From: a virus
Lineage: Duplodnaviria > Heunggongvirae > Uroviricota > Caudoviricetes
Virus record (IMG/VR): IMGVR_UViG_2606217106_000020
Reading direction: 5' to 3' (one strand)
DNA: 41,681 nt
Made by a program: the position numbers. Shown one piece after another: positions 15,001 through 18,000 of the stretch (position 1 is its first letter; each line of letters opens with the position of its first letter).

Positions 15001-18000
15001 TTGCTTCCACGTTGGCGGTGGTAACAGCAACGAGACGCCTGGTACGCGAGATCAGCAACGGAAAATTCCGTTACAAAATGCCTGATGTCGAAAACGGCGA
15101 TTTGAGCGCTTTATCATCGCAGAATAAGCAATCACACCATGACGCAGAAAACAGCGCGGCAGGCGATGAAATGAATCGTTTTCCGTTGGCATCAGAGAGC
15201 ACGGCAAAGGCCAGTACAGATGAGTTTATCCGAGAAGTTCCATCATTCACCGAAAAATCTGCCAGTTCGGTGATGCTTCCATCGCTGCATGCTGCCAGTC
15301 GAGAACTTCGTCGCGCCAAAAAACAGGTCCAGAAGTGGGAGCGAGTCTGCGCCGCGCTGCGGGAGCTGAACAAGCACCGGGATATTGTTCGACAGATTGT
15401 CGATTCATCCGGTCGTATTGTGTCGGAAAAGTGATTGCCGGAGGCGCTTATGGCGAAACCTTTTACACACGAACAGCGGGAAGAACTGAAGGCACGAATT
15501 ATCGGATTGGTACGCAAAAATGAACGCATGACGATATCGCAACTGGAGAGAGCGACGGGAGCAGGCTGGCATTCAGTCAGACGTTGCCTTGTGGATGTAC
15601 TGGCTTGTGGCGATTTATACATGTCCGGTAAATACGGTGTTTTTGCATCAGAACAGGTGTATCGCGTATGGCGTAAGACACCGGAGAAAACAACTGACCA
15701 GACATTGATTCGAAAGTTACCAGACGGAGAAATTCGCCGCTACGATAGACGCCTGAACATAATCTGTCGCGAGTGCCGGAATAGTGAAGTTATGCAGCGC
15801 GTGCTGGCTTTCTATCAGGGGAATTTTCAGGAGGCGGTACTGTGAGTAAATTAGCTATCAGGCTTCAATTGTCGCTGGCATTCGCATCAAAGGAGAATGA
15901 GATGACCACTTTTACAAAAGAGCAGTTAATCAGTCATGTTAGTGAAAATGTAAAGGCGATGAAATTTGCAGTAAAACAGACAGCATTCAAAAATTCTCTC
16001 GAGGCAATTGAGTTGGATTTAGCACTGGCCCTTGTTGCTCAGGCTTCGCTGGAAGCAGAGCCCGTGCTTTATATGAATCGATTTACCGGAAAGACATTCT
16101 CACTGGAAGAGCAACCCGGTGCTGATAAGGAACCGGAAATATACGTGCCGCTATATGCTGCCCCGCCAGACAGCGCCGCCATGCTTCAGGCTGGAAACTT
16201 TCGGGAAAAGAAGGGTTCGTCAACCAATAATTTTCGGGAAATCTCGGAAACGTCAACCAACCATCCGGTAACTCTGGATGGTTGGATAAGCTGTAGTGAG
16301 CGAATGCCGGATGACGGTCAGCACGTAATTATTTTATGTGATGGCGCATTCGTTCTTTATGCGCAATATCGAGACGGTGAGTTTTTTGATGTAGTCCGTG
16401 ATGGTGATGAATTTTTCGAAACACAGAGCCGCAATGTAACCGACTGGATGCCGCTACCAGAACCGCCGCAGGAGGTGCGCCAATGAACTGGCCTGAAGCA
16501 TTTGCAATTACAGGCGTTGCTATGGCTATCACTTTTTTAGTATATGTTATTTGTCGGTGGGGGTAAAAACGTTCGCCGGGATTAACACCAAAGGAGGGAA
16601 TATGTCGGATGATATATCACTGGCAATGGAAGGTGCGCTGGCTGTTATTGCTGTTGTGGGCGTTTACTGCCTGGTTGTGTTTTTGATGGATCGACTAGGG
16701 AACTGAATTCATTACGATATGGGAATTCCCATATCGGGTAAAAACGGTTTGCGGTAAAGCGAGAGTTAAGTAGAATTGCTGCGGGTGCTTGAGGCTGTCT
16801 GCCTCGGGCATGCCACCGTAAGGCAGACAGAGAAAAACCCCAGTTAACATTACGCGTCCTGCAAGACGCCTAACATTAATCTGAGGCCAATTTCATGCTA
16901 GACACATGTAGGTTAGCCTCTTACGCGCCGAAAGGCAAGGAGAAGCAGGCTATGAAGCAGCAAAAGGCGATGTTAGTCGCCCTGATCGTCATCTGTATTA
17001 CCGTCGTAGTGACGGCACTGGTAACGAGGAAAGACCTCTGCGAGGTACGAATCCGAACCGGTCAGACGGAGGTTGCTGTCTTCACAGCTTACGAACCTGA
17101 GGAGTAAGAGACCAGGCGAGGGAGAAATCCCTCGCCACCTCTGATGTGTCAGGCATCCTCAACGCACCCGCACTTAACCCGCTTCGGCGGGTTTTTTCAC
17201 TTACTGTGGTTGTGAATACGATTGGTATTAGGCTATGCTAACAACATTAGCCTGACTAATTTTGTATTGACTTGATTTTTGTTAAAGAACAGGACGGAGA
17301 AGTAAGGGTACACCCAATGAGCTACGCACTAAAAAAACACCCGCGATTGACTATTCCCCCTCGCGATAAAAGCGTTGTGGCAGCTCCGCGCCCGGCTATC
17401 GATGAAAATTGCACTCATCGTGAGCAGGTGAAAAATGCTTTCGATTTCGGTTTTTCTCGTTACGAGAAGGCAATGGAAGAACTTTCAAAAGTGTAATGAT
17501 GGGTATTGTGCTCTATGGCTGATATTGTTGAAGGAGTGCACTACCTTTCGTTTGATGATCTTACCGAAATTAATCGCCTTTTAATTGAGCTTCAAACACC
17601 AGATGAACCTGTTAGTGTGCTGAGTGTTGATAATTTAAGTTCTTCTCAGTCTCGTCCCAGCATGGTTCGATGGTATGAACAGACTAATGACATGTTTGTA
17701 CTGGCATCAGTATTGATTGAAAGTCTGATTCAGAATCATCCATTTGCTAATGCAAACAAACGAACAGCTATGATGGCTGGTTATGTCTTCTTGTTGTTGA
17801 ATGGCTATGAGTTAACAGCACCAGGCGATGAAATCGTGGAAATGGCAGAGGGACTGGCCTGCAAAACCTATACTCGAGAAGATCTCGAGAACTGGTTGTG
17901 TTATTGGTCTCGTGCGTATGACGGCCGGGAATTATGTAAAACAGGCGCAACTGTTGTTTTGTATGAAACTATCAAGCTTAAAATAGAACAGCAAAACTAA

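What the first reader, a model, noticed from the sequence alone, without database searches (positions are those of the whole stretch)
16707..17200. Hok-family type I toxin locus with a structured leader and an in-frame upstream ATG instead of a classical out-of-frame mok
The hok CDS (16952..17107) is essentially HokD. Its leader contains a long inverted repeat (ctgtctgcct ... aggcagacag, about 16794-16840) and a 20-bp perfect palindrome (gatatgggaattcccatatc, about 16717-16736), and two hairpins follow the stop, the second a canonical terminator. An ATG at 16895 is in frame with hok, which is atypical for mok/hok overlap. A Sok-like antisense RNA would be expected on the minus strand near 16880-16960 but cannot be confirmed by eye.
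Basis: partly seen in the sequence, partly recalled or inferred. Interest (0 to 1): 0.45.

Follow-up and report, generated by a model that had tools for sequence, protein, structure and literature searches.

The report
Ordinary prophage hok/mok/sok toxin–antitoxin locus
This is a complete, textbook hok/mok/sok RNA-controlled toxin–antitoxin cassette sitting in a lambda-like prophage of E. coli, already annotated in hundreds of genomes and studied in phage 933W/Sp5; the "unusual" in-frame mok is in fact the commonest arrangement.

Summary
They form a complete hok/mok/sok type I toxin–antitoxin locus, the intact form of what K-12 keeps only as the truncated relBE-hokD.

- **Identity:** the locus is 99.8% identical to loci annotated hokD in E. 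coli O104:H4-type genomes. It is 91% identical to hokW/mokW/sokW of phage 933W, which has the same layout, and an experimental hokW-sokW paper exists.
- **Leader:** Rfam RF01794 hits 16783-16957 on the hok-sense strand at 110 bits.
- **Long-range pairing:** the mRNA 5' end pairs with a 3' element at 17150-17169, and the pairing covaries across 33 loci from five genera.
- **Sok:** by homology it is 16903→16833 on the minus strand, with its promoter at 16938-16910.
- **In-frame mok:** this is not atypical. Of 45 loci, 28 have mok in frame and 11 out of frame, and K-12 mokC is in frame.
- **Palindrome:** the 22-bp palindrome (16715-16736) lies upstream of the hok promoter and is not in the leader.

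One side observation is unexplained. The same palindrome is embedded, under apparent DNA/RNA-level constraint, in KilA-N genes of diverse phages.

Verdict: already known, low interest.

The parts
16715..16736 (.). 22-bp perfect palindrome CGATATGGGAATTCCCATATCG. It is upstream of the hok promoter (centre about -57 from the start site) and is not part of the hok mRNA. It is an optional companion of prophage hok modules; function unknown.
   Evidence: Searches show the palindrome. It is absent from 933W, Rac and hokC loci. It is present upstream of hok in at least 3 different flank contexts. The RNA hairpin is predicted at -18.6 kcal/mol for 16700-16760, z=-3.7. The same core occurs inside KilA-N genes.
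16749..16776 (+). Inferred hok/mok promoter: -35 TTGCGG (16749-16754), 16-nt spacer, -10 TAGAAT (16771-16776).
   Evidence: Read from the sequence. The -10 keeps TAnnnT at a fixed distance from the conserved GGG 5' end in the aligned loci. The consensus scan did not flag it because the -35 matches only 3/6. Inferred, not mapped.
16783..17198 (+). Full-length mok-hok mRNA, about 416 nt, from the conserved GGGUGCUUGAGG 5' end to the intrinsic terminator.
   Evidence: The RF01794 match starts at 16783. MFE is -175.3 kcal/mol, z=-8.1, with the 5' end paired to the 3' end.
16783..16801 (+). tac element: the mRNA 5' end. It pairs either with fbi (inactive full-length form) or with 16835-16841 (tac stem of the processed form).
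   Evidence: I5, I10; duplex -30.6 kcal/mol. helix 1: pair 4-427 is UA in 20 and CG in 12 sequences. helix 1: 98.7% of cells paired.
16795..16830 (+).
   Evidence: I9. helix 2: 93.6% paired, 3 pairs with changes on both sides. It is part of the RF01794 consensus structure.
16837..16842 (+). ucb / anti-SD box (ACCCCA here, GCCCCA in most loci) opposite the mok Shine-Dalgarno.
   Evidence: helix 3: pairs 73-124, 74-123 and 76-121 are C-G in 32-33 of 33. The role of the homologous R1 positions is described in PMC9841398. This allele has A at 16837, against G in 92 of 97 scorable loci.
16833..16903 (-). Sok antisense RNA, about 71 nt: 15-nt single-stranded 5' tail, long hairpin, U-tail. It is complementary to the mok SD and start codon.
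   Evidence: Coordinates were transferred from the annotated sokW of 933W. The same transfer reproduces the annotated sokB 5' end exactly. Fold is -28.8 kcal/mol, z=-5.4. Consensus structure has covariation: pair 31-62 is AU in 16 and GC in 16.
16910..16938 (-). Inferred Sok promoter: -35 TTGCCT (16938-16933), 17-nt spacer, -10 TAACCT (16915-16910), start at about 16903.
   Evidence: Read from the sequence. The hexamers are identical to 933W, with one spacer difference at 16926. The TTG of the -35 and the TA...T of the -10 are invariant or nearly so in 33 loci. PMC8621323 reports sokW RNA expressed from its own promoter, with promoter mutations releasing toxicity. The consensus scan did not flag it.
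16895..17107 (+). mok, 70 codons, in frame with hok, preceded by SD GAGG at 16883-16886.
   Evidence: Same length and layout as mokW. The ATG is conserved at -57 or -58 in 39 of 45 loci.
16952..17107 (+). hok toxin CDS, 51 aa, preceded by SD AAGGAG at 16937-16942.
   Evidence: PF01848 E=1.4e-23. The near-identical genomes annotate it as 'type I toxin-antitoxin system toxin HokD'.
17115..17136 (+). 3' UTR hairpin, expected to form the protected 3' end of the processed mRNA.
   Evidence: I12. helix 4: 93.4% paired, 4 pairs with changes on both sides. The role of the equivalent R1 hairpin is described in PMC9841398.
17150..17169 (+). fbi (fold-back inhibition) element, complementary to the mRNA 5' end.
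   Evidence: (I5, I10). It is retained as an orphan in K-12 hokD, which has no 5' partner.
17176..17198 (+). Intrinsic terminator: AACCCGC-TTCG-GCGGGTT followed by a T-run.

Best explanation
The locus is a complete hok/mok/sok type I toxin–antitoxin cassette of the hokW/hokD type. It lies in the nin region of a lambdoid prophage, between the replication genes and Q.

**Proposed mechanism**
1. A weak promoter (TTGCGG-16-TAGAAT) makes an mRNA of about 416 nt (16783 to about 17198).
2. In the full-length mRNA the 5' end (tac, 16783-16801) pairs with fbi (17150-17169). The mok Shine-Dalgarno (16883-16886) is held by the anti-SD box (16837-16842). This form is neither translated nor bound by Sok.
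3. Slow 3' trimming back to the 17115-17136 hairpin removes fbi. The 5' end then refolds onto 16835-16841 and frees the mok ribosome-binding site.
4. Ribosomes starting at mok (16895) open the hok start (16952), and the membrane toxin is made.
5. This is prevented when the unstable Sok RNA of about 71 nt (16903→16833, own promoter at 16938-16910) pairs with the mok start region and the duplex is destroyed.

**Expected consequences:** the cassette should stabilise the prophage by killing cells that lose it. It may also add to host-cell lysis on induction, as published for hokW-sokW.

**Shown here:** all the sequence elements, their conservation, and covariation of the pairings.
**Inferred from R1 and hokW work:** the transcripts, the processing, RNase III cleavage and toxicity.
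For: **Identity**
- 99.8% identity over 521 nt to loci annotated hokD in O104:H4-type genomes. Related sequence occurs in 4721 of 5426 complete E. coli genomes.
- 91% identity to 933W hokW/mokW/sokW, with the same coordinates for all three genes.

**Toxin and leader**
- PF01848 at E=1.4e-23.
- RF01794 at 110 bits on the hok-sense strand.
- As a control, the same model hits the sense strand of K-12 hokC, hokB and hokE, 933W and an R1-type plasmid, and does not hit K-12 hokD.

**tac/fbi pairing**
- Exact 9-nt and 13-nt complements lie about 350-375 nt apart.
- The MFE of the full-length RNA pairs the two ends, z=-8.1.
- Across 33 loci from Escherichia, Kluyvera, Photorhabdus, Pantoea and Pseudocitrobacter, 86.6% of cells are paired against 40-48% when partners are slid. 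Sixteen pairs change on both sides. The 5'-3' pair 4-427 switches from U-A (20) to C-G (12).

**Sok**
- It folds as tail plus hairpin plus U-run, z=-5.4.
- The consensus structure shows covariation.
- The transferred 5' end matches the annotated sokB exactly.
- The promoter hexamers are identical to those of sokW.

**Experiments on hokW-sokW (PMC8621323)**
- HokW is toxic.
- sokW expressed from its own promoter neutralises it; mutating that promoter restores toxicity.
- The antitoxic effect partly depends on RNase III and Hfq.
- Mitomycin C lowers sokW and raises HokW.
- Phage release halves without the locus.

**R1 mechanism:** summarised from PMC9841398.
Against: - There are no transcript or toxicity data for this allele.
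- Neither promoter passes the simple sigma-70 scan. The hok -35 matches 3/6 and the Sok -10 TAACCT matches 3/6.
- This allele, like its O104:H4-type relatives, has A instead of the near-invariant G at 16837. That breaks one pair of the tac stem (it is the single exception at pair 6-72 among 33 sequences) and one pair of the anti-SD/SD helix. Regulation may therefore be shifted.
- The dcb element of the R1 model was not mapped here.
- The covariation counts rest on related sequences and on a structure derived from this window, which inflates them somewhat.
Confidence: 0.93

Rival explanations
1. One reading: an atypical hok locus in which the classical out-of-frame mok has been replaced by an in-frame upstream ATG, implying a different mode of translational control.
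For: - In R1 the mok and hok ATGs are 58 nt apart, so mok is out of frame (positions 116 and 174 in PMC9841398).
- K-12 mokB/hokB and a Rac-type prophage locus are also 58 nt apart.
Against: - The conserved mok ATG is in frame (-57) in 28 loci and out of frame (-58) in 11, out of 45 examined.
- 933W mokW, K-12 mokC and K-12 mokA are annotated in frame.
- An R1-type plasmid whose Hok is 100% identical to R1 Hok also has -57.
- The frame flips through 1-nt indels between the mok ATG and the hok SD, for example GG-CAAGG versus GGTCAAGG.
- PMC9841398 reports that only mok translation up to the hok start matters.
Confidence: 0.03
2. A decayed, non-functional hok relic, like the K-12 chromosomal copies that are IS-disrupted or have lost their regulatory 5' part.
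For: - K-12 hokA, hokC and hokE are flanked by IS elements, and hokD lacks the leader.
- The window allele carries a G→A change at a near-invariant regulatory position, 16837.
- A neighbouring RelE/ParE toxin gene is frameshifted in this window.
Against: - Every element is intact and in register: both promoters, tac, ucb, the mok SD and ORF, the hok SD and ORF, the 3' hairpin, fbi and the terminator.
- There is no IS element or truncation.
- The same allele is kept at 99% identity or more in 29 complete-genome records.
- In Sok the change at 16837 gives a G·U pair, so the hairpin is maintained.
Confidence: 0.05
3. The 22-bp palindrome is part of the hok regulatory unit, either as an operator or activator site at about -57 or as a hairpin that insulates hok from read-through of the early-right operon. 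On this reading it is not just neighbouring sequence.
For: - The palindrome is found 48-49 or 67 nt upstream of the hok 5' motif in at least 3 contexts. These differ in the left flank, and in one case in both flanks and in spacing.
- It is statistically unexpected.
- Elsewhere the same palindrome shows constraint on synonymous sites.
Against: - Most hok loci lack it, including the experimentally functional hokW.
- There is no T-run, so it is not an intrinsic terminator.
- No binding protein is identified.
- The window has no second copy, even allowing 3 mismatches.
Confidence: 0.2

Closest known systems
hokW / mokW / sokW of Shiga-toxin phage 933W (AF125520) and Sakai prophage Sp5
   Same: - 91% nucleotide identity over the mRNA.
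- mok is 213 nt and hok 156 nt, sharing one stop codon.
- Sok is 71 nt and overlaps the first 9 nt of mok.
- The hok -10 and the Sok -35 and -10 hexamers are identical, as are tac and fbi.
- Both sit in a lambdoid prophage.
- The Sok hairpin is extended by an 18-nt insertion relative to hokC and hokB.
   Different: - The Hok protein is 86% identical, with a different C-terminus.
- The Sok 5' tail and the first mok codons differ at several positions.
- 933W lacks the upstream palindrome and has a different sequence after fbi in place of the 17176-17193 terminator.
- 933W has G at the position equivalent to 16837.
E. coli K-12 hokD (relF) in the relB-relE-hokD operon of the Qin prophage
   Same: - The toxin differs at 3 of 51 residues.
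- Homology is near-identical from just 5' of the hok SD (about 16936) through the 3' hairpin, fbi and terminator.
   Different: - In K-12, relE abuts the hok SD.
- The promoter, tac, leader hairpins, ucb, the mok start and the whole Sok gene are missing.
- RF01794 does not hit it.
- The orphan fbi in K-12 indicates that the relBE arrangement is the derived state and the window carries the intact form.
- There is no relBE at this site in the window.
hok/mok/sok (parB) of plasmid R1
   Same: The same set of elements and the same order. RF01794 hits an R1-type plasmid locus. The tac/fbi, tac/ucb and SD/anti-SD logic is shared.
   Different: - Hok is only 37% identical.
- R1 mok is out of frame (58 nt).
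- The R1 leader hairpin carries a 17-nt insertion and its Sok hairpin is short.
- R1 is plasmid-borne rather than in a prophage.
E. coli K-12 hokC (gef) / mokC / sokC
   Same: - Hok is 88% identical.
- mokC is in frame and shares the hokC stop.
- sokC overlaps the first 9 nt of mokC, as here.
- RF01794 scores 118 bits.
   Different: - It is chromosomal, and in K-12 an IS186 sits downstream.
- Its Sok hairpin is shorter, lacking the 18-nt insertion.
- It has no upstream palindrome.

Membership tests
[quoted passage not shown] | A small (about 50 aa) hydrophobic Hok/Gef-family toxin ORF. | tested here: met
   PF01848 E=1.4e-23, 82.6 bits against a cutoff of 22. It is 94% identical to K-12 HokD.
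[quoted passage not shown] | An upstream overlapping mok reading frame with its own Shine-Dalgarno, starting about 57-58 nt before the hok ATG. | tested here: met
   ATG at 16895, 57 nt upstream, with GAGG 8 nt before it. The frame is open through hok.
[quoted passage not shown] | A cis-encoded antisense Sok RNA gene with its own promoter, complementary to the mok translation-initiation region. | tested here: met
   Met at the sequence level only. The region is homologous to the annotated sokW, has conserved promoter hexamers, folds at z=-5.4, and its hairpin covaries. The transcript itself was not observable with these tools.
[quoted passage not shown] | The conserved hok mRNA 5' leader structure (Rfam RF01794). 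| tested here: met
   110.3 bits against a gathering score of 59, full-length match 1-157. Helices are conserved with compensatory changes.
[quoted passage not shown] | Long-range pairing of the mRNA 5' end (tac) with a 3' fold-back element (fbi). | tested here: met
   helix 1 is 90.3% paired, with U-A changing to C-G at pair 4-427.
[quoted passage not shown] | 3' processing to a translatable truncated mRNA, RNase III cleavage of the Sok-mRNA duplex, and toxicity of Hok. | not testable with these tools
   Known for R1 (PMC9841398). Partly shown for the 91%-identical hokW-sokW (PMC8621323).
relBE-hokD (relF) operon arrangement of K-12 Qin | hok is directly downstream of relE and is transcribed with relBE, with no promoter, leader, mok or sok of its own. 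| tested here: not met
   The window has the full leader and no relBE upstream. The upstream genes are a DUF551 gene and a 34-aa ORF.
R1-type 'classical' mok geometry | mok is out of frame with hok (ATG to ATG distance of 58 nt). | tested here: not met
   The distance is 57 nt, so mok is in frame. This is not a defining feature of the family: 28 of 39 loci with the conserved ATG are in frame.

The most novel reading that the evidence does not exclude
The 22-bp palindrome upstream of the hok promoter may be one copy of a discrete hairpin or operator element that is widespread in phages.

- Its core, TATGGGAATTCCCATA, is also embedded in the coding sequence (MGIPI) of KilA-N domain genes from very diverse phage contigs.
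- In those genes the synonymous sites are frozen: Pro is CCC in 27/27 and Ile is ATA in 27/27.
- The flanking codons covary so as to keep the palindrome (D..S, V..T, S..D).

If KilA-N-type antirepressor proteins, or a common RNA-level factor, recognise this element, the hok-upstream copy would tie hok expression to the prophage's induction circuitry.
Probability: 0.15. Interest if true: 0.55.

Novelty: already known. Interest (0 to 1): 0.12.

Why it matters
For the locus itself, little is at stake. It is a well-understood toxin–antitoxin cassette, already annotated as hokD in near-identical genomes. Its closest relative, hokW-sokW, has been tested experimentally.

Three points are still useful:
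- **An annotation gap.** Genome pipelines label only the toxin. mok and Sok are not annotated, and the Rfam family named 'sok' actually models the sense-strand leader.
- **The K-12 relationship.** This is the intact counterpart of the truncated K-12 hokD, which still carries an orphan fbi.
- **The mok reading frame.** It is evolutionarily free, which fits the published view that only mok translation up to the hok start matters.

The one thing that might matter more is the palindrome shared with KilA-N genes. That is a side observation, and its link to hok is unproven.

Tried and rejected
- **Sigma-70 consensus scan.** It found neither the hok nor the Sok promoter. Both are weak matches and were placed by homology and conservation instead.
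- **The search for related loci with a 7-protein Hok alignment.** It failed because no stretch was conserved enough. The single protein was used instead, which limits the sample to HokD/HokC-like loci.
- **One Pfam call.** It failed on a frame error and was repeated.
- **One regex count.** It returned nothing because of a faulty pattern and was redone.
- **tac/fbi pairs 7-12 in alignment A4.** The Photorhabdus group is one column out of register because it lacks the bulge. The 'unpaired' cells at pairs 8, 10 and 12 are therefore partly an alignment artefact. The per-locus duplexes show that they do pair.
- **The palindrome as an intrinsic terminator.** Rejected because it has no T-run.
- **The palindrome as a remnant of a KilA-N gene.** Rejected because similarity to KilA-N genes stops exactly at the palindrome ends.
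- **HK022 Roi as a precedent.** From memory, Roi binds a site inside its own gene. Roi carries no MGIPI coding site or palindrome of this kind; that its N-terminal domain is of a different type is my reading of the sequence, not a Pfam result. The precedent is only an analogy.
- **Literature searches for the palindrome and for 'KilA-N palindrome'.** They found nothing relevant in the held library.
- **Sub-threshold Rfam isrK-like hit on the hok 3' UTR.** 31 bits against a gathering score of 50. Treated as chance structural resemblance.
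Full report
**1. Observation check.**
- The hok ORF is 16952..17107 (51 aa). An ATG at 16895 opens a 70-aa ORF in the same frame that ends at the same stop.
- The inverted repeat is CTGTCTGCCT 16795-16804 / AGGCAGACAG 16821-16830.
- The palindrome is 22 bp, CGATATGGGAATTCCCATATCG, at 16715-16736. It is the only perfect palindrome of 18 bp or more in the window.
- Two hairpins follow the stop: 17115-17136, and 17176-17193 followed by a T-run. The second is a terminator-scan hit.

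**2. What it is.**
- The ORF is a Hok/Gef toxin (PF01848, E=1.4e-23).
- Rfam RF01794 matches 16783-16957 on the + strand at 110 bits, against a gathering score of 59.
- The 521-nt region is 99.8% identical to loci annotated 'toxin HokD' in E. coli O104:H4-type genomes. The single difference is at 17114. Related sequence occurs in 4721 of 5426 complete E. coli genomes.
- It lies in the nin region of a lambdoid prophage: replication genes and a DUF551 gene upstream, and Doc and RelE-type modules, NinB/NinE, antirepressors, RusA, NinH and Q downstream.
- In the phage collection the best-annotated relative is phage 933W, at 91% identity. It carries mokW (213 nt), hokW (156 nt, same stop) and sokW (71 nt, opposite strand, overlapping the first 9 nt of mokW).
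- With a constant offset, those features map to window mok 16895..17107, hok 16952..17107 and Sok 16903→16833.

**3. Anatomy.** Positions were read from the sequence and supported by the alignments.

| Element | Coordinates |
|---|---|
| hok promoter | TTGCGG 16749-54, 16-nt spacer, TAGAAT 16771-76 |
| mRNA 5' end | GGGUGCUUGAGG at 16783 |
| Leader hairpin | 16795-16830 |
| Anti-SD (ucb) | 16837-16842 |
| mok SD | GAGG 16883-86 |
| hok SD | AAGGAG 16937-42 |
| 3' hairpin | 17115-17136 |
| fbi | 17150-17169 |
| Terminator | 17176-17198 |
| Sok -35 (minus strand) | TTGCCT 16938-33 |
| Sok -10 (minus strand) | TAACCT 16915-10, 17-nt spacer, start at about 16903 |

- The Sok hexamers are identical to those of sokW, with one spacer difference.
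- The predicted Sok folds into a 15-nt free 5' tail, a long hairpin and a U-tail (-28.8 kcal/mol, z=-5.4).

**4. Are the structures real?**
- The full-length RNA folds with its 5' end paired to fbi (z=-8.1).
- I collected 43 loci from one-genome-per-species contigs and added the K-12, 933W, Rac-type and R1-type loci.
- In 33 full-length loci the named structure is paired in 86.6% of cells, against 40-48% when partners are slid. Sixteen pairs change on both sides.
- The decisive long-range pair, mRNA position 4 with fbi, is U-A in 20 sequences and C-G in 12. Per-locus duplexes of -20 to -31 kcal/mol confirm the pairing.
- The alternative tac stem of the processed form is 98.7% paired.
- The 3' hairpin has four compensated pairs.
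- The Sok consensus hairpin covaries: pair 31-62 is AU in 16 and GC in 16.
- As a check on the coordinate transfer, the same procedure reproduces the annotated 5' end of K-12 sokB exactly.
- RF01794 always hits the hok-sense strand of the control loci, opposite the annotated sok genes. The family named 'sok' therefore models the leader, not the antisense RNA.

**5. The mok frame.**
- R1 mok is indeed out of frame. PMC9841398 places the mok ATG at 116 and the hok ATG at 174. K-12 mokB and a Rac-type locus are the same.
- However, mokW, mokC and mokA are annotated in frame.
- Among 45 loci the conserved ATG lies 57 nt upstream (in frame) in 28 and 58 nt upstream in 11. The rest are disrupted.
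- The difference comes from single-base indels between the mok ATG and the hok SD.
- This agrees with the published result that only mok translation up to the hok start is needed.
- In-frame mok is therefore the majority state.

**6. Relation to K-12 relBE-hokD.**
- Homology to K-12 hokD starts just 5' of the hok SD (about 16936) and runs through the 3' hairpin, fbi and terminator.
- Upstream, K-12 has relE in place of the promoter, leader, mok start and Sok. RF01794 does not hit it.
- K-12 keeps an fbi with no 5' partner. I infer from this that the relBE arrangement is derived and the window carries the intact form.

**7. Mechanism.** The best-supported model is the R1 model applied unchanged.
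- The full-length mRNA is inert, through tac-fbi pairing and SD/anti-SD pairing.
- 3' trimming produces an open form.
- mok translation unmasks hok.
- Sok pairs with the mok start and triggers decay.

The elements and their covariation are shown here. Transcripts, processing and toxicity are inferred. For hokW-sokW the following have been published (PMC8621323):
- HokW is toxic.
- sokW expressed from its own promoter neutralises it.
- The effect partly depends on RNase III and Hfq.
- Mitomycin C induces HokW.
- The locus contributes to phage release.

One caveat concerns this allele. It has A at 16837, where 92 of 97 scorable loci have G. That breaks one pair in both the tac stem and the SD/anti-SD helix, but leaves a G·U pair in Sok.

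**8. The palindrome.**
- It sits at -68 to -47 of the hok start, so it is not in the leader.
- It is absent from 933W, Rac-type, hokC, hokB and R1-type loci.
- It does recur 48-49 or 67 nt upstream of hok in at least three flank contexts.
- The upstream block containing it (window 16600-16760) occurs in 667 of 5426 E. coli genomes.
- Unexpectedly, a scan of viral contigs for its 16-nt core found 65 of 120 hits inside coding sequence, reading ATG GGA ATT CCC ATA (MGIPI). The recurring full-length examples are KilA-N domain genes: three representatives were confirmed as PF04383, with E-values from 1e-19 to 1e-27. The remaining hits lie in short or unrelated ORFs.
- In a second scan that left the codons free, 27 distinct KilA-N-like sequences used CCC for Pro and ATA for Ile in 27 of 27. 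The conserved Gly and Thr of the nearby QGTW motif used all four codons.
- The flanking codons change in pairs that preserve the palindrome (GAT..TCG, GTT..ACG, TCT..GAC), giving palindromes of up to 32 bp (28 bp).
- One sequence has the compensated centre GGGGATCCCC.
- This looks like DNA- or RNA-level selection on a hairpin or operator. However, the sequences are related and the first scan fixed the core. I found no literature on it.
- Whether it has anything to do with hok is open.

**9. Verdict.** The locus is a known kind of locus, already annotated in near-identical genomes, with a well-established mechanism. Interest is low. The palindrome is recorded as a side observation.

Noticed in passing
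window 16715-16736; loci L056-L263 from viral contigs (e.g. L122, L070, L118, L199, L249, L196): The core of the hok-upstream palindrome, TATGGGAATTCCCATA, also lies inside KilA-N domain genes of very diverse phage contigs, where it encodes MGIPI. Synonymous sites are frozen (Pro CCC 27/27, Ile ATA 27/27, against all four codons at the control Gly and Thr). Flanking codons covary to keep a palindrome of 20-32 bp (D..S, V..T, S..D). One sequence has a compensated centre, GGGGATCCCC. No literature was found.
   Followed up: partly
L075 and L125 (viral contigs), L055 (PPompW), L144: The palindrome recurs upstream of prophage hok with different left flanks: a 34-aa ORF, paa/adfO, or a third context. 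In L075 and L125 the right flank and the spacing also differ (67 nt rather than 49 nt to the hok 5' end). In L144 the left arm is truncated exactly at the core.
   Followed up: partly
window 16837: This allele, like its O104:H4-type relatives, has A where 92 of 97 scorable hok loci have G. The position belongs to the anti-SD box and is the partner of C6 in the tac stem. It corresponds to R1 G71, which a published mutational scan discusses as critical for sequestering the mok SD.
   Followed up: partly
window 16783-16957; L002, L005, L007, L008: Rfam RF01794, named 'sok antitoxin', always matches the hok-sense strand from the mRNA 5' end to the hok start. This is opposite to the annotated sokC, sokB, sokE and sokW genes. 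The RefSeq (PGAP-type) annotation of the near-identical genomes lists only the toxin, with neither mok nor Sok.
   Followed up: yes
window 16889-16903 (mok codons 1-3 and the Sok 5' tail): The stretch around the mok start, which is the single-stranded 5' tail of Sok, is the most variable part of an otherwise highly conserved leader. Each locus therefore has its own Sok recognition sequence. This could limit cross-talk between the several hok loci in one cell; the median in E. coli is 2 related places per genome.
   Followed up: no
window 18821-19019 and 20406-20604: There are two tandem copies of a P1/P7 immI-like module (c4-a1b1 target, isrK, C4 antisense RNA). Each lies just upstream of an ORF6N/P22_AR_C antirepressor gene (19073-19738 and 20657-21340), and a KilAC-domain gene follows (21409-22137).
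   Followed up: partly
window 23746-23951: A strong Rfam match to the sRNA STnc100 (165 bits) lies between the Q antiterminator gene and the first late genes.
   Followed up: no
window 17317-18793: A cluster of further toxin-antitoxin modules sits directly downstream of hok. It contains a Fic/Doc-family toxin (17506-18000) preceded by a 59-aa ORF, and a convergent HTH antitoxin (18051-18368) with a RelE/ParE-type toxin. That toxin gene carries a 1-nt deletion (near 18445) relative to E. coli NCCP15648, so it is frameshifted here or the base is a sequencing error.
   Followed up: partly
window 17116-17197: The hok 3' UTR (hairpin, fbi, terminator) gives a sub-threshold isrK-like Rfam match (31 bits against a gathering score of 50, E=8e-5). 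It is probably a chance structural resemblance.
   Followed up: no
L023, L027, L052; phage record PP818812.1: E. coli-type hok sequences (about 90% or more identical) appear on tiny contigs labelled Acinetobacter idrijaensis (275 nt), Xanthomonas pisi (431 nt) and a 'Candidatus Scatousia' MAG. One also appears in an 'Actinobacillus phage' record (93.5% identity). These look like contamination or host misassignment.
   Followed up: no
window 17089-17094 (GCT TAC GAA, Hok Tyr47): The hok codon TAC followed by G matches the UACG context. A recent preprint (10.1101/2025.08.07.668861) reports A-to-I editing by TadA at the corresponding codon of hokC, hokD and hokE, recoding Tyr to Cys. This was not examined further.
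   Followed up: no
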